Part shown: positions 18,993 to 33,937 of the stretch, in pieces
Position numbering within the stretch: position 1 is the first letter of the stretch
Layout: each line of letters begins with the position of its first letter
NCBI GenBank assembly: GCA_023898465.1
Contig: CP060223.1
Location: 896,001-960,000 of the forward strand
Length of the DNA stretch: 64,000 bases
Direction: 5' to 3'
DNA from: Candidatus Nomurabacteria bacterium
GTDB lineage: Bacteria; Patescibacteriota; Patescibacteriia; HK-STAS-PATE-3
Translations under genes and position numbers: made by a program
The notes under the pieces: model-generated
Databases searched by the model: none
What the model was told of the DNA's origin: nothing
Seen by the model: only the letters and a program-made list of their open reading frames with translations

Positions 18993-19068
18993 GCGCGCCT
19001 AGCTCAATGGTTAGAGCAGTCGGCTTATATCCGACCGGTTCCAGGTTCGAGCCCTGGGGCGCGCACCA
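18993..19068 (+). tRNA. tRNA-Ile with a UAU anticodon, CCA encoded
   Basis: Manual cloverleaf. Acceptor gcgcgcc/ggcgcgc, D stem gctc/gagc, anticodon stem gtcgg/ccgac, loop cttatat (anticodon tat), T arm ccagg-ttcgagc-cctgg. Confidence 0.8.
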
Positions 19069-21226: not shown

Positions 21227-21235
21227 AGTGTGGCT

Positions 21236-22714
21236 ATGACGCATTCAGTACTTAGCTCTCGACTTACTCAAGTTCCCATTCTTCCAGCACTTCGAAACCT
21301 GCAGAAGGCCTATGCATCTGCCGAGGTATATGTTGTTGGTGGAGCAATACGCGATGCCCTACTCAAACGAAAGGGTGGAGATATTGACTATCTTATTCGA
21401 AATGTTTCTTATGCAAATCTCGCGCGCCATTTGCAAAAGAGTGGCAGCGCTCAACTTGTTGGCAAACATTTTGGTGTTATCAAATATTCTCCACGTGGAA
21501 CAAAAGAGATATACGATATTGCCCTGCCTCGCTTAGAGCACTCTTTGCACATGAGTGGGGCCTATCATGACTTTGCGGTGCAGTCAGATCCTAAACTCCC
21601 AGTTGCTGAGGATCTCAAGCGACGCGACTTCACTATTAACGCCATGGCCTGGAATATTCATAGCGGCGAATTTGTAGATCCAAGCAATGGTCTGGCTGAC
21701 CTCGTCGCAAAAAAAATCCGGACTGTAGGTAACCCGAAGCAACGCTTCCAAGAAGACTACACTCGTCTACTTCGCGCTCTACGTTTTGCAGTTGAGCTAG
21801 ATTTTCAAATTGAGGATTCTAGCTGGCGCATTTTGAAACAACTGATTGGTAACCTTAGTAACCGCGTACTCCCACGTGAAGCAATTGCGGCTGAGCTAGT
21901 AAAAATGTTTGCTCGAGCGCCCCTGGCTACGGTTGACGCACTAGAAAATTCGGGTGCGCTACGCGTGCTCATGCCTGAAGCGCATGAAATGAAACGAGTT
22001 GTCCAGCCCGTGCTTCATCATCGCGAAGGATCAGTCTGGCAGCATGCCCACCTCAGCTTAGAAGCGTACACACACCCTGAATTCCGTCGGCGTTTCCCTA
22101 AATTCAAACCTGATGCTGAGCTCTACTTCGCAACCTGGATGCACGACATTGCCAAATCCGTCACTATGAAGCATGTCGGTTCGCACAGCACAAAGCCGCA
22201 CTACAAAAATCATGCTTCTGTAGGCGCGCATATGGCCGTCCGTATTGCTGAACGATTAAAGCTATCTTCAGCCGGTGGTCAAATTCTTCCACGCCGACTC
22301 GATTGGCTGTTGAGAAACCACCTTGTCCGCCTCAAAGTACATGAGCTAGATTTAGATGAAGTAGAACATCTTTTTTGCAACCCCAATCTACCAGGCGAAA
22401 AATTACTCGCTTTAAATTTTGCAGATGCCTGGGCATCAATTCCAGAAGAGGGCGGGCATGACCTCCGTGACCTTGATGCACTAATGAAAAAAATTGCTCT
22501 AGTAAAAAAACGTGGATTCAAAAAAGGTAAGCCGTATCACCTACTAAGCGGAAAAGACGTCATGAAAGGCATGCAAGTTTCTGCTGGACCTCAGGTCGGT
22601 AGTTTCCTCAGCCTGGTTCGCTATCAGCAACTAGAGGGCAAGTTGCTAAGTAAAGCGGCCGCGCTAAAATATCTTGCGCAATATTACCAATCAAAGCTAA
22701 AGAAATCCTCATGA
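21236..22714 (+). CDS. CCA-adding tRNA nucleotidyltransferase / poly(A) polymerase family protein with an HD domain
   Basis: VVGGAIRDALLKRKGGDIDYLI (pol-beta NT motif), RRDFTINAMA and a C-terminal HD region. Confidence 0.8.
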   Translation: MTHSVLSSRLTQVPILPALRNLQKAYASAEVYVVGGAIRDALLKRKGGDIDYLIRNVSYANLARHLQKSGSAQLVGKHFGVIKYSPRGTKEIYDIALPRLEHSLHMSGAYHDFAVQSDPKLPVAEDLKRRDFTINAMAWNIHSGEFVDPSNGLADLVAKKIRTVGNPKQRFQEDYTRLLRALRFAVELDFQIEDSSWRILKQLIGNLSNRVLPREAIAAELVKMFARAPLATVDALENSGALRVLMPEAHEMKRVVQPVLHHREGSVWQHAHLSLEAYTHPEFRRRFPKFKPDAELYFATWMHDIAKSVTMKHVGSHSTKPHYKNHASVGAHMAVRIAERLKLSSAGGQILPRRLDWLLRNHLVRLKVHELDLDEVEHLFCNPNLPGEKLLALNFADAWASIPEEGGHDLRDLDALMKKIALVKKRGFKKGKPYHLLSGKDVMKGMQVSAGPQVGSFLSLVRYQQLEGKLLSKAAALKYLAQYYQSKLKKSS

Positions 22715-23649
22715 ACATTGCCGCTATAGAAAAAGATATCGAAGTAGACGCCGCACATGACGGGGCGCGTTTAGATCGCTTCCTGGTTGATCATATTGAG
22801 GGCATTTCACGCGCTGAGCTGCAACGTTGGATTAAGCAAGGTGAGGTTCGAGTGAATGGGAAAAATGCTATTCCTCATCAAGCGCTGAAAGTTTGCGATC
22901 GCATTCACATCGAGCACCAAGCATCCGAACAACACACGCCGGATGCTCTAGCTGCTATTCAAGTGCTAGCCGAAGAAAAAGATTTCCTCATCATCTCAAA
23001 ACCTTCTGGCGTCCTCATGCACGCCACACCAAATTCGCACGAACAAACTTTAGCTGACTGGCTACTCGCGCACTACCCCGAGTTGCATGGTGTCGGCGAA
23101 GATCCTACACGACCTGGCATTGTGCATCGCCTTGATCGTGACGTATCCGGCCTCCTGCTCGTTGCCCGCACTCCAGACGCATTCATCTATTATAAAAATC
23201 TTTTTCAGGAACGGGCAATGGAAAAAGTATATATTGCCTTAGCTCACGGGAGCGTTGAAGAAGATGGAATGATTGAACTGCCCATCTCCCGTTCTCAATC
23301 AAACCGCCGGAGGATGGCAGCCCGAGCTGATGGTATAGGACGTCCGGCAATTACCGCCTATCATATTTTGAAGCGCTATCCTCATCTGACCTTACTTGAG
23401 GTGAAGCCAAAGACTGGACGCATGCATCAAATCCGCGTCCATCTCAATGCCATTGGCCACCCGATTGTGGGCGACCGTCTCTATGTAAAAAAGGCCAGCA
23501 AGGCCACCCAACTGCGACGACCCTTCCTCCATGCCCATAAACTAGCCTTTGTCGACCAAGAGGGCAAAGAAAGGGCCTATACTCTAGCAATACCCCAGGA
23601 ATTACAGGAGTATCTGGATACGCTTGACGAGAAACACGAAAATAGCTAG
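22711..23649 (+). CDS. RluA-family 23S rRNA pseudouridine synthase (RluD-like, with S4 domain)
   Basis: [20 protein letters not shown] catalytic Asp motif and an N-terminal S4-like region. Confidence 0.85.
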
Positions 23650-23689
23650 ACTGAGGGCCGATTTACATTTTCATTACTTTAGAAAAAAC

Positions 23690-24025
23690 ATGTCAGAAAC
23701 ACTAGCTCCGCTGCATGACAGCCTTCCTGAAGTGAAGTCAGGTCAGCAGGTCCGAGTCCATCAAAAAATCAGCGAGGGGGACAAGGAACGCAATCAGGTT
23801 TTTGAAGGCGTTGTCTTAAAGCGCAGTGGCGGCAAAGGCCCATCAGCCAGTATTACTGTTCGCAAAATTGGTGCTGGTGGCATTGGTGTAGAACGCATCT
23901 TCCCTCTTCATTCACCTGTCATCACCAAGGTTGAAGTAGTGGGTGAAGCAAAGACACGACGAGCAAATCTCAGCTATCTCCGTAAGCCTCGCGCCAAGCA
24001 GCTGAAGATGAAGTCAGTCAAATAA
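23690..24025 (+). CDS. rplS: 50S ribosomal protein L19
   Basis: [28 protein letters not shown]...[19 protein letters not shown] is the L19 signature. Start chosen at MSETLAP. Confidence 0.9.
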
Positions 24026-24029
24026 GTTC

Positions 24030-24046
24030 CTGCGCGGGTGGCGGAA
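24030..24046 (+). repeat. 17-nt copy of the tRNA-Leu(GAG) 5' end (ctgcgcgggtggcggaa), followed by two perfect 8-bp hairpins
   Basis: Identical to 24378-24394. Downstream are cccgaacc-acgcag-ggttcggg and cctgcacc-tcacaa-ggtgcagg. Confidence 0.6.
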
Positions 24047-24122
24047 CCCCGAACCACGCAGGGTTCGGGAGTCCTGCACCTCACAAGGTGCAGGGTGGGA
24101 GTAAACATTATGTACTCTTACT

Positions 24123-24371
24123 ATGTCATTCGTTTATATCCTGCTACTTAATAATCAAGAGCTCTACGTCGGATTTACTGCCGACCTTAATCGACGACTT
24201 GAAGAGCATCAACTAGGTAGGAGTGGTTACACAAGTAAGTACCTACCAGTAAAACTACTTTTTTATGAAGCCTTTACCAGCGAAGTGGATGCGCGGCGAA
24301 GAGAGAAATATTTAAAAACGAGTAAAGGTAAATCAACGATACGGATGATGCTCCGTACTACACTGCAGTAA
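24123..24371 (+). CDS. GIY-YIG nuclease family protein (YhbQ/UPF0213-like, 82 aa)
   Basis: VYILLLNNQELYVGFTADLNRRLEEHQLG matches GIY-YIG motifs. Confidence 0.8.
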   Translation: MSFVYILLLNNQELYVGFTADLNRRLEEHQLGRSGYTSKYLPVKLLFYEAFTSEVDARRREKYLKTSKGKSTIRMMLRTTLQ

Positions 24372-24378
24372 TATATCT

Positions 24379-24464
24379 GCGCGGGTGGCGGAATGGTATA
24401 CGCGCTAGCTTGAGGTGCTAGTGGCCGCAAGGCCTTGGAGGTTCAAGTCCTCTCCCGCGCACCA
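24379..24464 (+). tRNA. tRNA-Leu(GAG), type II with a long variable arm
   Basis: Acceptor gcgcggg/cccgcgc, anticodon stem ctagc/gctag, loop ttgaggt, variable arm tggccgcaaggcct, CCA encoded. Confidence 0.9.
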
Positions 24465-24575
24465 CGTGAAGCGTGGTGCTAAATAGCTGAGCAAAATTAG
24501 ACATACCACCGTAGCAAAAGCTGCGTTGCTTTTAAATTGGATAGACTCTTCACTGCTTAAACTCAAATGGTCTTC

Positions 24576-24797
24576 TCAGATGAGTATTAGCAAAACACAC
24601 ACAAGAATTTGCCCTAGGAGAAGTCCTGCACCAACCTGACGACGACCATCAATAATCCGTGCAAATCCAAGTGCAAAGAAAACTATAAAACCGCCTGATA
24701 CAAAAACTAAACTAGCAGGCGCTTGCATGAGCGCTATGTTCCATGCAAAAAACTGATAGAGAAAACTGAGAACGCAAAAAATTATTACTTTTTTCAT
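24576..24797 (-). CDS. hypothetical small membrane protein (73 aa)
   Basis: Two predicted TM helices. Located between tRNA genes. Confidence 0.35.
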   Translation of the reverse strand: MKKVIIFCVLSFLYQFFAWNIALMQAPASLVFVSGGFIVFFALGFARIIDGRRQVGAGLLLGQILVCVLLILI

Positions 24798-24923
24798 AAA
24801 AGGAAATGGACATCGTATTTGTATATATTTAATCGCACGCCTAGCTCTTTTGTTTCATGAAAGCTCGCTGTATTAATTCCAAAATCATGCTACTATGCTA
24901 GCAAGTAATTTTACTCTACCTCT

Positions 24924-25163
24924 ATGAAAAAAATTCTCGCTACCTTTTCATTCATACTTTTAGCCAGTCCATCCATTGCCTCAGCCCACACTGGCGTAGA
25001 ACACACAGGGACTTTTTGGCATATTTTTCTCCACCTGCTTAGCGAACCAGATCACATCTTCATAATAGGATCTATCGTTATCCTGGGTTATGGCGTACTG
25101 CTTCATACGAAACCACAGAGGAGTTTATCTCGTGTTCCACGTGGAAGCATTGCTAAGTATTGA
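24924..25163 (+). CDS. hypothetical small secreted/membrane protein (79 aa)
   Basis: Signal-peptide-like N-terminus MKKILATFSFILLASPSIASA, then a TM helix. Confidence 0.35.
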   Translation: MKKILATFSFILLASPSIASAHTGVEHTGTFWHIFLHLLSEPDHIFIIGSIVILGYGVLLHTKPQRSLSRVPRGSIAKY

Positions 25164-25188
25164 CTTCCCTAGGCTAATCGCGTAATAA
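25160..25188 (+). promoter_or_regulatory. promoter TTGACT-17-TAATAA for tRNA-Val(UAC)
   Basis: Exact 17-nt spacing. The tRNA starts 16 nt downstream. Confidence 0.4.
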
Positions 25189-25203
25189 TCAGGCCTGTCC
25201 CAT

Positions 25204-25280
25204 GGGCGGTTAGCTCAGTTGGTTAGAGCGCCTCGTTTACACCGAGGAGGTCGGGGGTTCGACTCCCTCACCGCCCACCA
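25204..25280 (+). tRNA. tRNA-Val(UAC)
   Basis: Acceptor gggcggt/accgccc, anticodon stem cctcg/cgagg, loop tttacac, CCA encoded. Confidence 0.9.
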
Positions 25281-25355
25281 CACTTAGCGTGGCCGACCAT
25301 ACAAACCATGGCTAGTAATTGAGGACGCGCTCTATAGATGTAAGTAGTGACTTTT

Positions 25356-25364
25356 TGCTATACT
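25356..25364 (+). promoter_or_regulatory. extended -10 TGCTATACT upstream of ugd
   Basis: The same 9-mer as on the minus strand at 44049-44057. Confidence 0.35.
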
Positions 25365-25395
25365 CATCAGGTACTAACTCCTAACTTTTTATTTC

Positions 25396-26682
25396 ATGAA
25401 AATATCTGTAATTGGCGCCACCGGCTACGTCGGTCTCGTCTCAGCAACCTGCCTTGCCGAAATTGGCCATACGGTAACTTGTTTTGGTAGAAACGCAGAA
25501 GCGATAAATAAATTACAGCGTGGCAATATTCCTATTTATGAACCCGGCTTGAACGAACTAGTCAAAAAGAATATAAAGGCAAAGCGTCTTCGCTTCACCA
25601 CGAATTTTGATCTAGCAGTAAAAGAAAGTCTCGCAATCTTTATTGCCGTAGGAACACCTCCGCTACCAAACGGTAAAGCAGACCTACGCGCCGTATTTGA
25701 AGTTGCACAACGTATCGGGCAAAGCATGACCGACTATAAGGTTATTGTTGATAAAAGCACTGTGCCAGTTGGAACGGGCCAAGAGGTGAAGCACATTATT
25801 GCAAAGGAATACTCAGGAAGATTTGATGTTGCTTCATGTCCAGAATTTTTGCGCGAGGGTTCAGCTATTGAAGACTTCATGCATCCAGATCGAGTGGTTA
25901 TTGGTACTGATTCTGAAAAAGCAAAAAGGGTTATGCTTGATATTTTCAAACCCCAGAAGACTACTAAGCTCACTACAAATATTGAAAGTGCCGAACTTAT
26001 TAAGTATGCTTCCAATGCTTTCTTGGCCACCAAAATTTCATTTATCAATGAGATATCCAACCTTTGCGATTTAGTCCGGGCTGATGTTGAGGAAGTCGCT
26101 CGAGGTATGGGCCTAGATAAGCGTATTGGACAAAGTTTCTTAAAGGCTGGAGTGGGATACGGCGGCAGCTGTTTCCCTAAGGATGTGAGTGCCTTAAAAG
26201 AACTTGCGGGATCTAGTGGCTATGACTTTCAGTTACTTAAGGCTGTCATTGAGGTAAACAATACACAACGATCAGTCGTCATTGCAAAAGCAAAACAACT
26301 ACTTGGTTCCTTGCGGAACAAACACATCGGCGTACTTGGACTGGCTTTTAAGCAAAATACTGATGATGTACGGGAGTCTGCTGCCATAGACATTATTAAA
26401 CTGCTGCAAAAGGCTGGTGCAAAAATTACTGCTTTTGACCCAGTGGCTACAGAAAAAGCAAAAAGTAAGCTTACTCGCGTAAAGTATGCCAAGTCAGCCA
26501 AGGAAGCATGTAAGCAGACTGATCTCCTTGTCATTGTGACTGAGTGGCCTGAATTCGCTCAGCTTGATTGGAAAAAAATCCGTCCAACTATGAGACAAGC
26601 AAAAATTGTTGATGGACGTAACCTGCTTGATCCAATAAAGATGCGAGAGTTGGGGTATCAATATCTCAGCGTAGGTCGATAG
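25396..26682 (+). CDS. ugd: UDP-glucose 6-dehydrogenase (nucleotide-sugar dehydrogenase family)
   Basis: MKISVIGATGYVGLVSATCLA (NAD-binding site) and GGSCFPKD catalytic Cys motif. Confidence 0.85.
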   Translation: MKISVIGATGYVGLVSATCLAEIGHTVTCFGRNAEAINKLQRGNIPIYEPGLNELVKKNIKAKRLRFTTNFDLAVKESLAIFIAVGTPPLPNGKADLRAVFEVAQRIGQSMTDYKVIVDKSTVPVGTGQEVKHIIAKEYSGRFDVASCPEFLREGSAIEDFMHPDRVVIGTDSEKAKRVMLDIFKPQKTTKLTTNIESAELIKYASNAFLATKISFINEISNLCDLVRADVEEVARGMGLDKRIGQSFLKAGVGYGGSCFPKDVSALKELAGSSGYDFQLLKAVIEVNNTQRSVVIAKAKQLLGSLRNKHIGVLGLAFKQNTDDVRESAAIDIIKLLQKAGAKITAFDPVATEKAKSKLTRVKYAKSAKEACKQTDLLVIVTEWPEFAQLDWKKIRPTMRQAKIVDGRNLLDPIKMRELGYQYLSVGR

Positions 26683-26744
26683 TAAAAACCCTGCCACTTC
26701 ACTCAAAGAGATAAAGAGACAGGGTTTCAACAGATCACAACTGC

Positions 26745-26960
26745 CTACGCAGTTGATTTGTCGTCGGCGACTTCGTCGCCACTGCTCACGATCTTAGGCT
26801 CATCCATCTTCTGCACCAGCTTTGGCCTGGGCTTTGGCACATACGCCGGAAACTCCCTCTTGCCACGACGATTGGCTATCAGCATAGCGCCGAGCACAAT
26901 CGCTCCTGCCCCCAGGATCGCCAAGAAGAAAAGTACCGGGTTCTGAAGTAGAGACGACAT
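26745..26960 (-). CDS. hypothetical small membrane protein (71 aa)
   Basis: Strong SD (gaggtgaggagg) upstream of the ATG at 26960. One TM helix. Confidence 0.5.
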   Translation of the reverse strand: MSSLLQNPVLFFLAILGAGAIVLGAMLIANRRGKREFPAYVPKPRPKLVQKMDEPKIVSSGDEVADDKSTA

Positions 26961-27073
26961 GATTCCTCCTCACCTCGATTGTTAACCCCCGCATTTACTC
27001 TAGCCTAAAACGACTTTGCTCCTACGTCAAATACCCGCTGCCGACGGGCTATGAAAAATGCAGCAAAGCAATT

Positions 27074-27241
27074 TTAGCGTTTATCTTTTAAGCGCCCTCG
27101 TTTCTTCAACGCTTCACGGAGCACCCACTCGATTTGACCATTCAGGCTGCGCAATTCATCACTAGCCCACCTTTCGAGTGCCTCTAGGGTTGTGCTATCA
27201 ACACGGAGCAAAAATGGCTTTGTCCTCCTTTGTACCGCCAT
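27074..27241 (-). CDS. Arc/MetJ-type ribbon-helix-helix DNA-binding protein (55 aa; not in the ORF track)
   Basis: Reverse translation gives MAVQRRTKPFLLRVDSTTLEALERWASDELRSLNGQIEWVLREALKKRGRLKDKR, a canonical Arc-like RHH. The ATG lies 2 nt after the SPFH stop. Confidence 0.45.
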   Translation of the reverse strand: MAVQRRTKPFLLRVDSTTLEALERWASDELRSLNGQIEWVLREALKKRGRLKDKR

Positions 27242-27243
27242 GC

Positions 27244-28113
27244 TTATTGGTACAAGCTTCCGGTATTCACCACCGGTTGCGCATGACGATCACTGCAAAG
27301 CACAACCAAGAGATTGCTCACCATGGCAGCCTTTCGCTCCTCATCTAATTTTACAACGTCTTTTTTTGAAAGCTCTTCAAGCGCCATCTCTACCATGCCC
27401 ACCGCACCTTCAACTATTCTCGTTCGGGCGGCTACCACCGCACTTGCCTGCTGGCGCTGGAGCATTGCACTGGCAATCTCTGGTGCATAAGCTAAGTGAC
27501 TAATTCGCGCTTCAATAACCTCAACACCTGCTTTTGCCAAACGGTCCTGCACTTCAGCTTTTAGTTTTTCAGCTACGTCATTTGTGTTCCCACGCAATGA
27601 GACCACACCTTCTTGATGAGCGTCATAGGGATATGAGGTAGCCATGTTACGGAGAGCAGCTTCGCTCTGTACATGGACAAAATTTTCATAGTCATCAACA
27701 TTGAACATTGCCTCAGCAGTATCGACAACCTTCCAAACTATGACTGCAGCAATCTCGATGGGGTTACCATCAGAATCATTTACTTTTAACTTTCCGCTTT
27801 CAAAGTTTCGTATGCGAAGAGAAATTCTTCGTCGACTTGTAAAAGGATTCATCCAACGAAAGCCTGACTGTTTTTCTGAACCTATATACTTACCAAACAA
27901 CTGCGCAACTGCAGCCTCATTTGGATTTACAATAAAAAAACCACTTGTACAAAAAAGAACAGCTATCCCTAGGAGTATGGAAACAATTACTAGCCAGATG
28001 GTATTCGCAGTTGCGGCATAAATAAAACCAAACGCCGCCAGACACAAGAGCACAAATAAGGAAGGAGCAGCAACAAAGCCATTAGTCGAACGAACAGCTT
28101 TTTCTTTAATCAT
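27244..28113 (-). CDS. SPFH/Band-7 (stomatin/prohibitin-like) membrane protein
   Basis: N-terminal TM helices, then [21 protein letters not shown]... SPFH domain and a coiled-coil C-terminus. Confidence 0.85.
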
Positions 28114-28127
28114 AGTAAAAAGGTAAA

Positions 28128-28146
28128 TGATATCAAACTGATATCA
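28128..28146. promoter_or_regulatory. double palindromic operator-like site TGATATCA-aac-TGATATCA, 15-33 nt upstream of the SPFH start
   Basis: Two perfect self-complementary 8-mers. A minus-strand TTGACA -35-like hexamer sits at 28169-28174. Confidence 0.4.
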
Positions 28147-28213
28147 GTGAACCTCTTATCTGTACATTTGTCAAGTTAAAAAAAACTACTACGCAGATGT
28201 AGTATGTTTTCTC

Positions 28214-28247
28214 TGGTGGACCCTACCCCGCTGGGCGGGGTCAGCTC
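28214..28247 (-). repeat. degenerate tRNA-Ala 3'-half fragment (T-arm plus acceptor remnant)
   Basis: tggtggaccctacc is identical to the 3' end of tRNA-Ala at 28263 and 29946. It is followed by ccccgctgggcgggg, a T-arm-like hairpin. Confidence 0.5.
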
Positions 28248-28262
28248 TGTATGTTGAGATCT

Positions 28263-28338
28263 TGGTGGACCCTACCGGGCTCGAACCGGTCACCTCCGCG
28301 TTGCAAACGCGGCGCTCTACCAAATGAGCTAAGGGCCC
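28263..28338 (-). tRNA. tRNA-Ala(UGC)
   Basis: Reverse complement gggccct...tttgcaa...agggtcc-a-cca. The G3:U70 Ala identity pair is present. Confidence 0.9.
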
Positions 28339-28626
28339 TTAATTCAGACTATTCGAAACAGGTGAAAAAATATCCCGTAGAAGAGATGGAACAAATCCAG
28401 TCAGTGTAAGAAAAACAATGAAAATCATGAGGATACCGAGAAGCTTTAAAAAAATTCTCGTACCACCCTCGGTACCGAGATGCTGCTCAGCCCATTCGAT
28501 CCGACCAAACCAGTTCATGAAAAAATCAGTCTTGATCACAAGTAGCGCACCTATCAGTATAACGATTCCACCAATTAAATATCGCATAACTCTTCTCGTA
28601 TTATTAACGCCCCCCCCTAGCACCAT
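28339..28626 (-). CDS. hypothetical small membrane protein
   Basis: 95-aa ORF with 2 TM helices. The start is ambiguous (MVLGGG or MRYLIGG). Confidence 0.35.
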   Translation of the reverse strand: MVLGGGVNNTRRVMRYLIGGIVILIGALLVIKTDFFMNWFGRIEWAEQHLGTEGGTRIFLKLLGILMIFIVFLTLTGFVPSLLRDIFSPVSNSLN

Positions 28627-28730
28627 CGAGTACTTGAGCTTGAAAAGCTAAGTACGAGATGAAAAGCGGCACGTTTGCAAAGGGCGCAGTCCGGCTTGGC
28701 CGGGCAAAGCCTGGAGCAAACGATGACGTG

Positions 28731-28807
28731 TGGTGGGCGATCCAGGAATCGAACCTGGGACCTCGTCATTATCAGTGACGCGCTCTAACCAACTGAGCTA
28801 ATCGCCC
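28731..28807 (-). tRNA. tRNA-Ile(GAU)
   Basis: Reverse complement gggcgat...cgtca-ctgataa-tgacg...atcgccc-a-cca. Confidence 0.9.
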
Positions 28808-28813
28808 ATGTTT

Positions 28814-28827
28814 GTTCCCCGTGGAAC
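28814..28827. repeat. 14-nt near-palindrome GTTCCCCGTGGAAC, 7 nt upstream of the tRNA-Ile(GAU) 5' end
   Basis: One of three copies of GTTCCYCGWGGAAC in the window. Confidence 0.5.
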
Positions 28828-28854
28828 ATGATGTAAAACTACATAACAACGCGG

Positions 28855-28940
28855 TGGTGCCGCCGGTCGGACTTGAACCGACATGAGGTTACCCTCAAGG
28901 GATTTTAAGTCCCTCGTGTCTACCATTCCACCACGGCGGC
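28855..28940 (-). tRNA. tRNA-Leu(UAA), type II
   Basis: Reverse complement gccgccg...aggga-cttaaaa-tccct, a long variable arm, and gtcgg-ttcaagt-ccgac-cggcggc-a-cca. Confidence 0.85.
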
Positions 28941-29043
28941 AAGCATTCAAAGCGAATACATGCCATATTTCAACACAAGAATGTCATTCATGCAAGACCA
29001 GCAGGAACCACATGCTAACACGAGTATTTCGGAAAAACAAGAC

Positions 29044-29721
29044 TTACTCGGGTTTATTAAACTCAATCTGCGAAGTAGACTCTTTGCTTCTGCGACTTTT
29101 AATAAACTCCCAGAGGGCGGGCAATAATGAAATAGCAATGATAGCAACTACGACAAAACTAAAATTCTCCTGGATAAAAGGAAGCCTGCCAAAAAAATAT
29201 CCTCCGAACAAGAAAATGCTGACCCAGAGGAATGCTCCAAGCACATTATAAGTGAAAAAGTGACGATATCGCATTAAGCCAACACCTGCAACAAAGGGAG
29301 CTATGGTACGAACAATTGGAACAAATCTCGCAATGACAATTGTCTTTGCTCCATACCTTTCATAAAAACGATGGGTACGGTCAAGATGCTCCTTCCTTAG
29401 CCAACGAGAATTTCTCAACTCATATACTCTTCGACCAAGGTGCTTCCCTATCCAATAGTTTAATCCATCGCCTAACACAGCCGCAGTAAACAGCAAGGCA
29501 AAGAGAAGTATAATATTTAGTGACCCTGCATCAGACAGCGCTCCAGCGGCAAAAAGAAGCGAATCCCCTGGCAAGAAGGGCATAATCACAATGCCCGTCT
29601 CAAGGAAGACAATACCAAAAAGAAGCGCATAGACCCAGGTGCCGTATGTGCTTATAGCTATTCCAAGGCTTTCATCTAAGTGGAGAAAGTATTGAGAAAT
29701 AGTGTGTAATAGCTCGTTCAA
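29044..29721 (-). CDS. DedA-family membrane protein
   Basis: GIVFLETGIVIMPFLPGDSLLFAAGAL and ARFVPIVRT DedA motifs. Confidence 0.85.
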   Translation of the reverse strand: MNELLHTISQYFLHLDESLGIAISTYGTWVYALLFGIVFLETGIVIMPFLPGDSLLFAAGALSDAGSLNIILLFALLFTAAVLGDGLNYWIGKHLGRRVYELRNSRWLRKEHLDRTHRFYERYGAKTIVIARFVPIVRTIAPFVAGVGLMRYRHFFTYNVLGAFLWVSIFLFGGYFFGRLPFIQENFSFVVVAIIAISLLPALWEFIKSRRSKESTSQIEFNKPE

Positions 29722-29796
29722 CTTGAATTAGATAATTGTTTCAGTATTTAGTCAAAATGTTATTTTATTTTTTTTGGCTAACTTTAGTGAGGCGAT

Positions 29797-29810
29797 GTTC
29801 CTCGAGGAAC
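29797..29810. repeat. perfect 14-nt palindrome GTTCCTCGAGGAAC
   Basis: Lies 11 nt 3' of tRNA-Ala(CGC) and about 75 nt upstream of the DedA start. Confidence 0.5.
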
Positions 29811-29820
29811 TTTTTAATTG

Positions 29821-29895
29821 TGGTGGACCAGAGGGGAGTTGAACCCCTGACCCCTGCAATGCGAATGCAGTGCTCTACCACTGAGCTACTGGCCC
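29821..29895 (-). tRNA. tRNA-Ala(CGC)
   Basis: Reverse complement gggccag...ctgca-ttcgcat-tgcag...ctggtcc-a-cca with the G3:U70 pair. Confidence 0.85.
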
Positions 29896-29901
29896 TAGTG
29901 T

Positions 29902-29915
29902 GTTCCTCGTGGAAC
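29902..29915. repeat. 14-nt near-palindrome GTTCCTCGTGGAAC, 7 nt upstream of the tRNA-Ala(CGC) 5' end
   Basis: Same spacing to the tRNA 5' end as the copy at 28814. Confidence 0.5.
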
Positions 29916-29945
29916 AAACGGATGGGAGGCCTAAATTATCTAACG

Positions 29946-30021
29946 TGGTGGACCCTACCGGGCTCGAACCGGTCACCTCTTCCATGCCATGGAAGCGCTC
30001 TACCAAATGAGCTAAGGGCCC
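29946..30021 (-). tRNA. tRNA-Ala(GGC)
   Basis: Body is almost identical to tRNA-Ala(UGC), but the anticodon stem-loop is cttcc-atggcat-ggaag. G3:U70 present. Confidence 0.9.
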
Positions 30022-30073
30022 ATGTGAACTACGGATATTTTAAGCTTCTTTTCTCCGTACCTGCCTCAGCCTT

Positions 30074-30145
30074 TGCCCCCACCATGAATCGAACATGGAT
30101 CCAGGGCTTAGGAGTCCCTTGTTCTATCCTTTGAACTATGGGGGC
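30074..30145 (-). tRNA. tRNA-Arg(CCU); no encoded CCA
   Basis: Reverse complement gccccca...aggga-ctcctaa-gccct (A31:G39 mismatch)...ccatg-ttcgatt-catgg-tgggggc-a. The loop CUCCUAA matches the E. coli argW loop. Confidence 0.7.
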
Positions 30146-30379
30146 AGGGGCGGCGGCAGGCAATTTTCTTTTACCCGAGATTTTGTAACTTTTGTAAAAA
30201 GTTATTTTTTTGCTAGCCTTTGCAAAAAATAAGCGTCGTAGAATATTATGTTAAAAATGCATCTAAGTTACGAGCCATTATTACACCAAGTGGCCATTTT
30301 CGCAATGCCTAAAGAGCCAGATCGATTGACACAGTAGCATCAACAACTTATTGTTACCACGTTTACCACTCATATACAT

Positions 30380-30784
30380 ATGGCACTACTTAATAGAGAA
30401 GAAAAACAATCACAACACATCGATACCGTTATTGGCCGAAACGTTCAGGTTGAGGGCAATTTTAATGGTGAAGGCAATGTAACCGTAGAGGGTACGGTTT
30501 CAGGTACCTTAAAGACAGCTAAAGATCTCATCGTTGGATCAGCCGCAAAGATTAAAGCTGATGTTGAAGCTGAAAACATAAGCGTTGCGGGTGAAATTCA
30601 AGGAAACGTTATCGCACGCGGTAAACTTGAGCTAAGTTCAAGCGCAAAAATAATTGGCAATGTAAAAACCTCAACTTTGTCGGTAGAGTCAGGCGCAGTT
30701 TTGCACGGCAAATGCACTATGAACGAAACGAAAGACAAGCTTGCAACTGATGAAGCGATTGAAATGCCCGCTAAGCTAAAATAA
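30380..30784 (+). CDS. bactofilin (polymer-forming cytoskeletal protein)
   Basis: Repetitive beta-helical V/I-x-G/V-x-V-x-G pattern (VEGNFNGEGNVTVEGTVSGTL...). Confidence 0.75.
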   Translation: MALLNREEKQSQHIDTVIGRNVQVEGNFNGEGNVTVEGTVSGTLKTAKDLIVGSAAKIKADVEAENISVAGEIQGNVIARGKLELSSSAKIIGNVKTSTLSVESGAVLHGKCTMNETKDKLATDEAIEMPAKLK

Positions 30785-30796
30785 GCAGGGCATTGT

Positions 30797-31567
30797 ATGT
30801 ATTGTTACCTGTTTGACACCTTTCTCCGTGAAAGGCAGTACGAAAAAAGCGTACATCGCGTTGAAGCGCGAATCGCTGAGCTTGGCTTACAAGGAAAAAC
30901 TGAGCGGCTCAGCATTCTAAAAAACGCAGGTGAAATAGTTCGCGATGCAGTTAAAAAAGGTGTACAAACTTTTGTTATTGTTGGCGACGATAGCACGATT
31001 CAGAAAGTATTAACCTATGTAGCCGAAGAAAAGGTTACCTTGGGAATTATTCCTCTCGGTACAAAATTAGAAATAGCTGACATGCTTGGTATTCCGCACG
31101 GAGAGGCTGCTTGCGATACACTTTCGAAACGAGTTATTCAATCACTCGATCTCGGCCGAATAAACTCTCAATACTTTTTACGCTCACTCGATATTCAGAG
31201 CAATGCGGTGCAACTTGAAAGTGATCAAGGGTACACAATCTCTCTTCAAGACCCGGAAGCTAAAATTCAAATTGCTAACTTTCTTCCTATGCAAGATGAA
31301 AGGGGAAAAGCAGGCGACCCATCAGATGGAACGCTTGAGGCAATTGTTTCAGCCTCGCCGAAAAAAGGTTTCTTTACCTCGCTTCGTGGACAGTCTGATC
31401 ACCCTAGCATTTTCCCATTCCGCAAAGTAAAAGTGACGTGTCGCGATGCCAGCGTCCCTCTGGTAGTGGACGGGGAAGGGATAGTAAAAACTCCAGCCCA
31501 AATAGAAGTAGTACCACATTGTTTGCGGGTGATCGTCGGAAGAGCGCGGCATTTTGCTCAGGCATAA
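30797..31567 (+). CDS. diacylglycerol-kinase catalytic domain family lipid kinase (YegS-like), degenerate GGDG motif
   Basis: VQTFVIVGDDSTIQKV...LGIIPLGT matches DAGK_cat topology. Confidence 0.55.
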   Translation: MYCYLFDTFLRERQYEKSVHRVEARIAELGLQGKTERLSILKNAGEIVRDAVKKGVQTFVIVGDDSTIQKVLTYVAEEKVTLGIIPLGTKLEIADMLGIPHGEAACDTLSKRVIQSLDLGRINSQYFLRSLDIQSNAVQLESDQGYTISLQDPEAKIQIANFLPMQDERGKAGDPSDGTLEAIVSASPKKGFFTSLRGQSDHPSIFPFRKVKVTCRDASVPLVVDGEGIVKTPAQIEVVPHCLRVIVGRARHFAQA

Positions 31568-32545: not shown

Positions 32546-33937
32546 ATGCGACGTTACGTCATTCTCATAGGTATCGTACTCATACCGGTTCTGGCCGTAT
32601 TTATTATCGTGTCCGGGGTTATTAATAAACCACAGCCAAATGTACAGGACGTACCATTAACCTTTTGGACAGTACAAGATGACACAAGCGCCTTTACTGA
32701 CGTGATCGCAGCATATCAGCAAGCCCACCCCTACATTACCATCGAGGTCGTACAAAAGCGTGCTCAAGATTATGGTGAGGCACTTATTCAAGCATGGGCA
32801 CGTGGGGACGGGCCTGATATTTTTTCTCTCCCTAATGCAGAGGTTGGAGAATATGCTGACTTTATTGCCCCATTACCTGAGGCAACACAGGTCTATCAAT
32901 ATCAGAACAAACGCGTGCTTCTCAGTAGGCAGCTTGTGATTACACCGGTCACTTCAAGCTCTATCACCCCGGCCCGCCTCAGTAATGACTATGTAGATGT
33001 TATTGCCAGCGATGTTATCCGAGATGGACAAATATATGCACTCCCATTAAGCGTAGACACCTTAGCAGTCTACGTTAATCGCAACCTTCTAAACACTGCT
33101 AATATTGTTTCACCGGCAACAACCTGGCAAGAGCTTATTTCCCAAGTACCTGATCTCACTATTTTTGATGCGCAAAATAATATTATTCAATCTGGGATCG
33201 CACTTGGAACGGCTGAAAATGTTTCCTACTCAGCTGAAATACTCTCACTGCTCATGATGCAAAACGGTACACAAATGACTGACCCAACTGGAACACGTGT
33301 GCAATTTGATCAGGGAACAAAAGAATATAACGCGGGTGAACGAGCTGTTGATTTCTACACCGACTTCTCTGACGAAACAAAAGCAGTCTACAGCTGGTCA
33401 GGGGATAGCTCACACTCAATTGATAGTTTTATCGAAGGTAAGACTGCCTACTTAATTGGCACCTTAGCTGACCAGGCAACAATTCAGGAGCAAAACCCGG
33501 CACTCCGCTATGACATCGTGCCAATGTTCCACATCAATACCGATGGAACCGACACCAGCGGCAGCACGGGAACGCGTACAAAAATTAACTACGCAAAATA
33601 CTGGGTGCAGACAGTGGCAAAAAATTCCGCTCATAGCAATGAGGCTTGGAATTTTGTGCAATACATGAGTCAGTCAGGCGTCGTCGAGGCATATCTCAAC
33701 GCCAGCGGACGTATTTCTCCTCTCCGAAAAATATTAGCACAACAAGTGAATGTGCCGGCCTTACAAGTCTTTGCCAATCAAGCGCTCACTGCGCAAAATT
33801 GGTATCATGGAAACAGCTGGACACAAACTGAAGGCTATCTCAAGCAACTCATCACCGTTGTTGCTGAAAAAACAAAGTTGCCGTTGGAGGCTTTAAGCCA
33901 AGCTGCTAAACAAGTGCAGCTCACCTTTACTGAATAA
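32546..33937 (+). CDS. extracellular solute-binding protein (ABC-type sugar-binding family 1-like) with an N-terminal membrane anchor
   Basis: 463 aa. N-terminal TM helix and an SBP-like alpha/beta architecture. No permease or ATPase genes are adjacent. Confidence 0.55.
   Translation: MRRYVILIGIVLIPVLAVFIIVSGVINKPQPNVQDVPLTFWTVQDDTSAFTDVIAAYQQAHPYITIEVVQKRAQDYGEALIQAWARGDGPDIFSLPNAEVGEYADFIAPLPEATQVYQYQNKRVLLSRQLVITPVTSSSITPARLSNDYVDVIASDVIRDGQIYALPLSVDTLAVYVNRNLLNTANIVSPATTWQELISQVPDLTIFDAQNNIIQSGIALGTAENVSYSAEILSLLMMQNGTQMTDPTGTRVQFDQGTKEYNAGERAVDFYTDFSDETKAVYSWSGDSSHSIDSFIEGKTAYLIGTLADQATIQEQNPALRYDIVPMFHINTDGTDTSGSTGTRTKINYAKYWVQTVAKNSAHSNEAWNFVQYMSQSGVVEAYLNASGRISPLRKILAQQVNVPALQVFANQALTAQNWYHGNSWTQTEGYLKQLITVVAEKTKLPLEALSQAAKQVQLTFTE

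What the first reader, a model, noticed from the sequence alone, without database searches (positions are those of the whole stretch)
28200..30145. Minus-strand tRNA cluster with three tRNA-Ala isoacceptors (UGC, GGC, CGC), a pseudo-tRNA fragment, and a 14-nt palindrome GTTCCYCGWGGAAC placed 7 nt upstream of two tRNAs
Six tRNAs sit on the minus strand: Arg-CCU, Ala-GGC, Ala-CGC, Leu-UAA, Ile-GAU and Ala-UGC. They are interleaved with a DedA gene and a small membrane ORF. Ala-UGC and Ala-GGC are near-identical outside the anticodon arm, indicating duplication followed by an anticodon switch. A 34-nt degenerate T-arm/acceptor fragment of tRNA-Ala lies 36 nt 3' of Ala-UGC. The palindrome GTTCCYCGWGGAAC occurs three times, at 28814, 29797 and 29902. 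Two copies are exactly 7 nt upstream of a mature tRNA 5' end (Ile-GAU and Ala-CGC). The third is about 75 nt upstream of the DedA start. This spacing suggests a dimeric protein binding site or a processing or transcription signal, not a chance repeat.
Basis: seen in the sequence. Interest (0 to 1): 0.5.

Follow-up and report, generated by a model that had tools for sequence, protein, structure and literature searches.

The report
parS centromere sites in tRNA cluster
The 14-nt palindrome next to the tRNAs is the core of the well-known bacterial centromere site parS, which the chromosome-partition protein ParB binds; here it forms a five-site cluster in a Candidate Phyla Radiation (CPR) genome, so it is an ordinary element in a little-studied group, not a tRNA signal.

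Summary
Six minus-strand tRNAs, the three palindromes and the tRNA-Ala 3' fragment are all present; the spacer to the two tRNA 5' ends is 6 nt, not 7.

With one base added on each side, the palindromes read TGTTCCCCGTGGAACA, TGTTCCTCGTGGAACA and TGTTCCTCGAGGAACT. These are 1, 1 and 3 mismatches from TGTTCCACGTGGAACA, the published parS centromere of Pseudomonas. Two more sites lie at 21487 and 25133 (2 mismatches each). That makes five sites in 8.4 kb, against 0.21 expected.

The source is a Ca. Nomurabacteria (CPR) MAG. Five other CPR genomes (Doudnabacteria and others) carry 2-7 canonical parS sites, including perfect TGTTTCACGTGAAACA. They sit in the same gene block: tRNA Arg-CCU/Ala-GGC/Ala-CGC, bactofilin, DAGK-like kinase.

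The fixed distance to tRNAs is not conserved: about 130 nt and 12 nt in two relatives. The hairpins are weak, and symmetric positions do not covary.

Best explanation: these are ParB-binding parS sites that sit in tRNA spacers because those are the available non-coding DNA.

Caveats: no ParB gene or replication origin could be reached, and every window site is imperfect.

The pseudo-tRNA fragment is probably an insertion scar. The shared Ala-UGC/Ala-GGC body is ancient, not a recent duplication.

The parts
21487..21502 (.). parS-like site TTCTCCACGTGGAACA. It has 2 mismatches to TGTTCCACGTGGAACA and a perfect right arm and core. It lies inside the CCA-adding enzyme / PolyA_pol gene (21230-22714).
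   Evidence: site; gene
25133..25148 (.). parS-like site TGTTCCACGTGGAAGC. It has 2 mismatches, a perfect left arm and a CACGTG core. It lies 12 nt upstream of the -35 of a sigma-70-like promoter (TTGACT-17-TAATAA) read by eye before tRNA-Val-UAC, and it overlaps the 3' end of the 79-aa ORF 24924-25163.
28813..28828 (.). parS-like site TGTTCCCCGTGGAACA (1 mismatch). It lies in the 47-nt spacer between tRNA-Leu-UAA and tRNA-Ile-GAU; the 14-mer core ends 6 nt before the Ile-GAU 5' end.
29796..29811 (.). parS-like site TGTTCCTCGAGGAACT (3 mismatches). It lies 10 nt after the tRNA-Ala-CGC 3' end and 75 nt before the DedA start. L003 has a site at the same 75-nt distance.
29901..29916 (.). parS-like site TGTTCCTCGTGGAACA, which reads TGTTCCACGAGGAACA on the minus strand (1 mismatch). 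It has the same CACGAG core as P. aeruginosa parS7-9. It lies in the 50-nt spacer between Ala-GGC and Ala-CGC, 6 nt before the Ala-CGC 5' end.
   Evidence: PMC4368675 Table 1
30073..30146 (-). tRNA-Arg-CCU, the first gene of the cluster. In CPR relatives the Arg-CCU/Ala-GGC pair marks the parS neighbourhood.
29946..30021 (-). tRNA-Ala-GGC. Its body is identical to Ala-UGC outside the anticodon arm.
29821..29895 (-). tRNA-Ala-CGC
29044..29721 (-). DedA/VTT-domain membrane protein. After one 70% relative, its best homologues (about 60% identity) include several named Chloroflexota, so it was probably acquired horizontally and inserted into the tRNA cluster.
28855..28940 (-). tRNA-Leu-UAA
28731..28807 (-). 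tRNA-Ile-GAU
28339..28626 (-). Small membrane protein conserved in CPR (NCBI tag H6760_04595, called there as 82 aa). In relatives it is always followed directly by tRNA-Ala-UGC.
28263..28338 (-). tRNA-Ala-UGC, the last gene of the cluster.
28214..28248 (-). Degenerate copy of the tRNA-Ala 3' part (variable loop, T-arm, acceptor 3' strand, CCA). It is probably a scar of an insertion or recombination at the tRNA 3' end. L003 carries it almost unchanged.
   Evidence: analogous cases
28178..28204 (-). Terminator-like hairpin (TACTAC-ATCTGC-GTAGTA) followed by T8, read by eye. It has too few G-C pairs for the scan's rule. It is the likely end of the tRNA transcription unit.
   Evidence: read from the sequence; not called
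30380..31567 (+). Bactofilin (30380-30784) and DAGK_cat/YegS-like kinase (30797-31567). This pair is the synteny anchor that ties the locus to the parS-bearing block of other CPR genomes.

Best explanation
The palindromes are parS sites, the centromere-like DNA sequences to which a dimer of the chromosome-partition protein ParB binds. Five imperfect sites (21487, 25133, 28813, 29796, 29901) form one 8.4-kb cluster.

Inferred mechanism, from the established ParABS model rather than from anything shown here: ParB dimers load at these sites, close into CTP-dependent clamps and slide onto neighbouring DNA. The resulting complex is moved by ParA and helps load SMC, so that sister chromosomes separate.

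The cluster belongs to a gene block that is conserved across CPR bacteria: tRNA Arg-CCU/Ala-GGC/Ala-CGC, bactofilin and a DAGK-like kinase. In other CPR lineages the sites lie inside a Wzy_C-type membrane-protein gene. That gene is absent from this locus, and three of the five sites occupy short tRNA spacers. The 6-nt distance to two tRNA 5' ends is therefore incidental.
For: 1. Sequence. With flanking bases the sites are 1, 1, 2, 2 and 3 mismatches from TGTTCCACGTGGAACA. That is 5 matches against 0.21 expected, and no shuffle reached 5.
2. Published parS. The 16-mer is the parS of P. aeruginosa and P. putida; M. xanthus uses TGTTCCACGTGGAACG. The general consensus is TGTTNCACGTGAAACA and the ParB half-site is GTTCCAC (PMC7022226).
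3. Binding precedent. The window site TGTTCCACGAGGAACA is closer to the perfect palindrome than P. aeruginosa parS7 (TGTTCCACGAGGAACG), which ParB binds in vitro (PMC4368675).
4. Independence from genes. Sites occur in spacers, near promoters and inside a coding gene.
5. Close relatives. L003 has TGTTCCACGCGGAACT and TGTTCCACATGGAACC. L018 has a perfect TGTTCCACGTGGAACA 12 nt before Arg-CCU of the same tRNA trio.
6. Other CPR genomes. Each of five 20-kb loci carries 2-7 parS sites, with about 0.07 expected per locus. These include perfect TGTTTCACGTGAAACA and TGTTCCACGTGAAACA. In every locus the sites sit between tRNA Arg-CCU/Ala-GGC/Pro-CGG and Mur ligase, tRNA Ala-CGC, DUF4446, bactofilin and DAGK. 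The window has the same tRNAs next to bactofilin and DAGK.
7. Metagenome contigs. Among 73 contigs anchored on the tRNA-Ala 3' end, parS-like sites occur in 6 of 15 Ala-GGC loci and 0 of 58 Ala-UGC-only loci (Fisher p = 3e-5).
Against: - The Pfam gene lists of L086-L090 also show none. The rest of the 1.08-Mb genome could not be read.
- There is no dnaA gene, DnaA-box cluster or GC-skew switch in the window, so origin proximity is unknown.
- None of the five window sites is a perfect palindrome. Three deviate in the CACGTG core, which matters for affinity in P. aeruginosa, so they may be low-affinity sites.
- No paper in the searchable library describes parS or ParB in CPR bacteria.
Confidence: 0.8

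Rival explanations
1. Relic or secondary parS. The sites descend from the ancestral CPR centromere but are now degenerate, low-affinity copies. The working centromere, with perfect sites, lies elsewhere in the genome.
For: All five sites carry 1-3 mismatches, three of them in the core. Relatives have perfect sites. In P. aeruginosa only the highest-affinity sites support segregation. The Wzy_C gene that hosts the sites in relatives has no homologue in the window.
Against: Five sites are kept within 8.4 kb. The GTTCC/GGAAC arms are intact in the three cluster sites and in both L003 sites. The DedA-proximal site sits at the same 75-nt position in L003. No better site exists in the 64 kb available.
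Confidence: 0.1
2. Operator of another dimeric transcription factor that regulates the tRNA/DedA transcription units and only resembles parS.
For: The central bases vary and differ from CACGTG. Sites lie near promoter-like sequences before Val-UAC and DedA. No ParB gene was seen.
Against: The match extends to the outer T and A of the 16-mer. One site lies inside a coding gene. Canonical parS arrays occupy the syntenic position in five other CPR genomes. No regulator gene adjoins the cluster.
Confidence: 0.05
3. RNA-level element: a 5-bp hairpin in the pre-tRNA transcript that serves as a processing, stability or termination signal placed at a fixed distance from tRNA 5' ends.
For: Two copies lie exactly 6 nt before mature 5' ends, and all three cluster copies lie in regions likely to be transcribed. 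The plus-strand reading of 29797 fits a terminator-like pattern.
Against: The hairpins give only -4.2 to -4.7 kcal/mol, and the spacers are no more stable than shuffles (z -0.6 to -0.9). The arms are invariant rather than covarying, and symmetric positions 5/12 are non-complementary in 7 of 17 sites. The distance to tRNAs is not conserved in L003 or L018. Eight of the ten tRNAs in the window lack the motif. No Rfam family other than tRNA matches.
Confidence: 0.05

Closest known systems
Chromosomal parS of the TGTTCCACGTGGAACA type (Pseudomonas aeruginosa and P. putida; Myxococcus xanthus uses TGTTCCACGTGGAACG)
   Same: The 16-bp palindrome has the same GTTCCAC half-site. There are several copies clustered within a few kb. 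There is a hierarchy of imperfect sites with one intact arm; for example, P. aeruginosa parS7-9 carry the same CACGAG core as the window site at 29901.
   Different: No perfect copy occurs in the window. Cognate ParB and origin proximity are not shown. Three sites lie in inter-tRNA spacers of a roughly 1-Mb CPR genome.
General bacterial parS consensus TGTTNCACGTGAAACA (B. subtilis, C. glutamicum, Caulobacter and others)
   Same: CPR relatives (L078, L087, L088, L089) carry perfect TGTTTCACGTGAAACA or TGTTCCACGTGAAACA sites in arrays of 4-7 at the syntenic position.
   Different: In those relatives the arrays lie inside a Wzy_C-type membrane-protein gene rather than near parAB. No parAB lies within 10 kb.
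tRNA 3'-end duplications made by elements that integrate at tRNA genes (att-site scars)
   Same: The fragment at 28214-28248 repeats the T-arm, acceptor strand and CCA of the adjacent tRNA-Ala. L046 has an exact 40-nt duplicate 13 nt after its tRNA-Ala. L044 has a GIY-YIG ORF between the tRNA and a 59-nt 3' fragment.
   Different: Only 14 nt separate the fragment from the tRNA, and no element remains between them. The fragment is diverged, with compensatory T-stem changes, yet it is nearly identical in L003. It may therefore be old and maintained.

Membership tests
parS (ParB-binding centromere site) | 16-bp inverted repeat matching TGTTNCACGTGAAACA or TGTTCCACGTGGAACA | tested here: met
   Five sites with 1-3 mismatches against 0.21 expected. 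The consensus comes from PMC7022226 and PMC4368675. No perfect copy occurs in the window.
parS (ParB-binding centromere site) | Several copies clustered in one chromosomal zone, independent of gene strand or coding status | tested here: met
   All five sites lie within 21487-29916. None lies in the other 55 kb, apart from a weak match at 33106.
parS (ParB-binding centromere site) | Conservation of sites at the syntenic position in related genomes | tested here: met
   Sites in L003, L018, L036, L042, L048, L078, L084 and L086-L090. The shared block is tRNA Arg-CCU/Ala-GGC/Ala-CGC, bactofilin and DAGK.
parS (ParB-binding centromere site) | A cognate ParB (HTH plus CTPase fold) encoded in the same genome | not testable with these tools
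   None found in the 64-kb window or in 534 kb of related loci. The remaining roughly 1 Mb of the source contig could not be fetched.
parS (ParB-binding centromere site) | Location in the origin-proximal domain | tested here: inconclusive
   No dnaA gene, DnaA-box cluster or GC-skew switch in the window. gyrA lies 17 kb away. The origin position is unknown.
parS (ParB-binding centromere site) | Specific ParB binding and spreading (EMSA, ChIP-seq) | not testable with these tools
   This needs an experiment.
tRNA leader, processing or promoter signal at a fixed distance from tRNA 5' ends | Same element at the same distance before many tRNAs, conserved in relatives | tested here: not met
   Present before 2 of 10 tRNAs in the window. 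The distance is about 130 nt in L003 and 12 nt in L018. It is absent before Ile-GAU in L003.
Structured RNA hairpin | Stability above background and compensatory base changes in the stem | tested here: not met
   Spacer z-scores are -0.6 to -0.9. The arms are invariant. Positions 5/12 are non-complementary in 7 of 17 sites. There is no Rfam hit.
Pseudo-tRNA / tRNA gene fragment | Partial tRNA sequence that no tRNA finder calls as a gene | tested here: met
   35 nt, 74-77% identical to the tRNA-Ala 3' part. Not called by ARAGORN or Rfam.

The most novel reading that the evidence does not exclude
CPR bacteria keep their centromere in one conserved chromosomal block, a parS array flanked by the Arg-CCU/Ala-GGC/Ala-CGC tRNAs and followed by DUF4446, bactofilin and a DAGK-like kinase. 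Two further possibilities are not excluded. First, the adjacent bactofilin (with DUF4446) could be the scaffold that positions the ParB-parS complex, as BacNOP/PadC do in Myxococcus. Second, in this Nomurabacteria lineage the sites moved into pre-tRNA leaders, so ParB loading and tRNA transcription or 5' maturation could influence each other.
Probability: 0.12. Interest if true: 0.6.

Novelty: new member of a known kind. Interest (0 to 1): 0.3.

Why it matters
The finding turns a puzzling tRNA-associated palindrome into a standard element, the chromosomal centromere.

It also gives what appears to be an undescribed, positionally conserved parS locus for CPR/Patescibacteria; no paper in the searchable library links parS or ParB to this group. 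These are ultra-small, mostly uncultured bacteria whose cell cycle is almost unstudied.

A conserved parS block offers three practical things:
- a landmark for orienting CPR genome assemblies;
- a handle for testing whether these organisms use ParABS;
- a hint, from the conserved neighbouring bactofilin gene, about how the complex might be anchored.

For the finding as first stated, the result is deflationary: there is no new tRNA signal.

Tried and rejected
- Fetching the source genome. Exact-protein look-ups found only short Logan contigs or nothing. The one genome-contig scan, anchored on tRNA-Leu-UAA, returned three distant CPR genomes without parS. No genome-wide motif map or ParB search was therefore possible.
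- ParB, ParA and DnaA.
- Relatives found through the small membrane ORF (Kerfeldbacteria and others). The ORF-Ala-UGC adjacency is conserved, but there are no parS sites. This later made sense, because parS goes with the Ala-GGC/Arg-CCU block and not with Ala-UGC.
- Ideas considered and dropped: a sigma-54 or other promoter element positioned for leaderless tRNA transcription, a DnaA box, a LexA/Cheo box, a LacI-type operator, a REP/MITE repeat and an intrinsic terminator. Each had a poor sequence match, no extended repeat flanks or no U-tract on the transcribed strand.
- Half-site enrichment. GTTCCAC occurs 8 times against 5.8 expected, which is not significant.
- Literature searches for parS or ParB in Patescibacteria, CPR or Saccharibacteria, and for DUF4446, found nothing relevant.
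Full report
**1. Observation**

ARAGORN and Rfam agree on six minus-strand tRNAs between 28263 and 30146: Ala-UGC, Ile-GAU, Leu-UAA, Ala-CGC, Ala-GGC and Arg-CCU. A DedA/VTT-domain gene (29044-29721) and a small membrane ORF (28339-28626) lie among them.

Both coding genes are real.
- The DedA protein is on record as a Ca. Nomurabacteria MAG protein on a 1,082,586-bp contig.
- The small ORF has 23 CPR homologues.

The 14-mer GTTCCYCGWGGAAC occurs at 28814, 29797 and 29902 and nowhere else; no shuffle produced a match. The third copy lies 10 nt after Ala-CGC and 75 nt before the DedA start.

Ala-UGC and Ala-GGC are identical outside the whole 17-nt anticodon arm.

A 35-nt degenerate copy of the tRNA-Ala 3' part lies at 28214-28248.

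**2. What the palindrome is**

Read with one more base on each side, the copies are:
- TGTTCCCCGTGGAACA (28813)
- TGTTCCTCGTGGAACA (29901; TGTTCCACGAGGAACA on the minus strand)
- TGTTCCTCGAGGAACT (29796)

These are 1, 1 and 3 mismatches from TGTTCCACGTGGAACA. A search with that 16-mer finds two more sites:
- TGTTCCACGTGGAAGC at 25133, 12 nt upstream of the -35 of a promoter-like sequence before tRNA-Val-UAC
- TTCTCCACGTGGAACA at 21487, inside the CCA-adding-enzyme gene

That is five matches at up to 3 mismatches against 0.21 expected, and no shuffle reached five (genes).

TGTTCCACGTGGAACA is the published parS centromere of P. aeruginosa and P. putida. M. xanthus uses TGTTCCACGTGGAACG. The general bacterial consensus is TGTTNCACGTGAAACA, and GTTCCAC is the known ParB half-site (PMC7022226).

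P. aeruginosa parS7-9 carry the same CACGAG core as the 29901 site, and ParB binds them in vitro with intermediate affinity (PMC4368675).

**3. Related sequences**

L003 is a Logan contig from a relative whose DedA is 70% identical. It has the same gene order and two sites:
- TGTTCCACGCGGAACT, about 130 nt before Ala-CGC
- TGTTCCACATGGAACC, exactly 75 nt before the DedA start, as in the window

The arms are conserved and the centre is not. No site precedes Ile-GAU in L003.

A metagenome scan anchored on the 30-nt 3' end of tRNA-Ala returned 73 contigs, 383 kb in all. They hold 10 parS-like sites at up to 2 mismatches to TGTTNCACGTGNAACA, against 1.2 expected. All 10 lie in loci that carry Ala-GGC, usually with Arg-CCU: 6 of 15 such loci against 0 of 58 Ala-UGC-only loci, Fisher p = 3e-5.

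L018 has a perfect TGTTCCACGTGGAACA 12 nt before Arg-CCU, followed by Ala-CGC and Ala-GGC. This is the window's tRNA trio.

The sites in L036 lie inside a Wzy_C-type gene. That protein is on record from Ca. Doudnabacteria. Five 20-kb loci were fetched through its homologues: L086-L088 (Doudnabacteria), L089 (labelled Saccharibacteria) and L090 (Patescibacteria group).
- They carry 5, 4, 5, 7 and 2 parS sites within about 1 kb, including perfect TGTTTCACGTGAAACA and TGTTCCACGTGAAACA. About 0.07 sites are expected per locus.
- In all five the array sits in the same block: RNase HII, tRNA Arg-CCU/Ala-GGC, tRNA Pro-CGG, the parS array in Wzy_C, Mur ligase, tRNA Ala-CGC, DUF4446, bactofilin and a DAGK/YegS-like kinase.

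The window has Arg-CCU/Ala-GGC/Ala-CGC directly next to bactofilin (30380-30784) and the DAGK-like gene (30797-31567). It has no Wzy_C homologue. The window palindromes are therefore the local version of a positionally conserved CPR parS cluster.

**4. Mechanism**

Shown: the sequence match, the clustering, the independence from gene context and the syntenic conservation.

Inferred from the established ParABS model: ParB dimers load at these sites, form CTP-dependent sliding clamps and build the partition complex that ParA moves and that recruits SMC.

The placement in tRNA spacers is best explained by opportunity. These are among the few non-coding stretches at this locus in a compact genome. 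Two 16-bp sites sharing an offset within 47-50-nt spacers is not improbable, and the offset is not conserved in L003 or L018.

**5. Rivals**

*RNA hairpin.* This fits poorly.
- The stems give only -4.2 to -4.7 kcal/mol.
- The spacers are no more stable than shuffles (z -0.6 to -0.9).
- The arms are invariant rather than covarying.
- Symmetric positions 5/12 are non-complementary in 7 of 17 sites, which matches the known N position of parS.

*A different transcription factor.* This is unlikely given canonical parS at the syntenic place in other CPR genomes.

*Relic or secondary sites.* This is the most serious caveat. None of the five window sites is perfect, three deviate in the CACGTG core that matters for affinity in P. 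aeruginosa, and the primary site could lie elsewhere.

**6. What could not be shown**

- No ParB, ParA or DnaA was found in the window or in 534 kb of related loci.
- There is no DnaA-box cluster and no GC-skew switch.
- The rest of the source contig could not be fetched.
- No paper in the searchable library treats parS or ParB in CPR.

**7. The other claims**

*Ala-UGC/Ala-GGC resemblance.* It is not a recent duplication with an anticodon switch. The same 5' 26 nt and 3' 33 nt occur in 15 Ala-GGC and 41 Ala-UGC genes on diverse CPR contigs. Ala-GGC almost always carries the arm CTTCCATGGCATGGAAG. The contigs were selected by the 3' 30-mer, so only the 5' part is an independent observation.

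*Pseudo-tRNA fragment.*
- It recurs almost unchanged after a tRNA-Ala in L003, which also holds other tRNA fragments.
- L046 has an exact 40-nt 3' duplicate 13 nt after its tRNA-Ala.
- L044 has a GIY-YIG ORF between its tRNA-Ala and a 59-nt 3' fragment.
- In the window, the GIY-YIG ORF at 24123-24371 is flanked by a perfect 17-bp direct repeat of the tRNA-Leu-GAG 5' end (family D9).

The fragment is best read as a scar of insertion or recombination at a tRNA gene. Its compensatory T-stem changes and its conservation in L003 remain unexplained.

**8. Verdict**

The palindrome is a known kind of element, parS, seen in a group where it appears not to have been described. The tRNA-specific interpretation is not supported. 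Confidence in the parS reading is 0.8. Novelty: new member of a known kind. Interest: 0.3.

Noticed in passing
window 24030-24393: The 82-aa GIY-YIG ORF (24123-24371) is flanked by a perfect 17-bp direct repeat, CTGCGCGGGTGGCGGAA, at 24030-24046 and 24377-24393. The second copy is the 5' end of tRNA-Leu-GAG. This looks like a small mobile GIY-YIG cassette inserted at a tRNA gene. GIY-YIG ORFs also sit next to tRNAs in L044, L086 and L087.
   Followed up: partly
L086 10356-10972; L087 10053-10822; L088 9705-10861; L089 8302-9444; L090 10293-10663: In Doudnabacteria and other CPR genomes, 2-7 canonical parS sites are packed into about 1 kb, at the 5' end of and inside a Wzy_C (O-antigen-ligase-like) membrane-protein gene. 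No parAB lies within 10 kb.
   Followed up: yes
window 30380-31567; L086 13127-14865; L087 14937-16728; L088 12878-14603; L089 12118-13846; L090 13235-14855: A bactofilin gene followed by a DAGK/YegS-like gene lies next to the parS/tRNA block in every genome examined. In the five relatives' loci L086-L090 a DUF4446 gene precedes the bactofilin; the window has no DUF4446 here. In Myxococcus, bactofilins scaffold the ParB-parS complex (PMC5703909), so the adjacency may be functional.
   Followed up: partly
window 18993-19068: tRNA-Ile with anticodon UAU, which to my knowledge is uncommon in bacteria; most decode AUA with a lysidine-modified CAU tRNA. Whether tilS is absent from this genome was not checked.
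   Followed up: no
window 29044-29721: After one 70% relative, the best DedA homologues are only about 60% identical, and several of the named ones are Chloroflexota (Anaerolineales, Caldilineaceae, Ardenticatenaceae). This suggests horizontal acquisition and insertion into the tRNA cluster. A conserved TTGACT-17-TCTAAT promoter-like sequence precedes it in both the window and L003.
   Followed up: partly
window 28263-28626; L007, L009, L011, L012: The small membrane ORF is followed directly by tRNA-Ala-UGC in every relative examined; in most (L007, L009-L012) it is also preceded by tRNA-Val-UAC. In the window, Val-UAC (25204, plus strand) is separated from it and on the opposite strand, which implies a local rearrangement.
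   Followed up: partly
L003 1440-1740: The relative's spacer between Leu-UAA and Ile-GAU holds two broken 5' fragments of tRNA-Ile-like genes before the intact gene. Decay or duplication of tRNA genes is therefore frequent in this lineage.
   Followed up: no
window 28214-28248: The pseudo-tRNA fragment keeps a 5-bp T-stem through two compensatory pair changes and a 7-nt loop, and it is 33/34 identical in L003 although the neighbouring DedA protein is only 70% identical. The scar explanation does not account for this conservation.
   Followed up: partly
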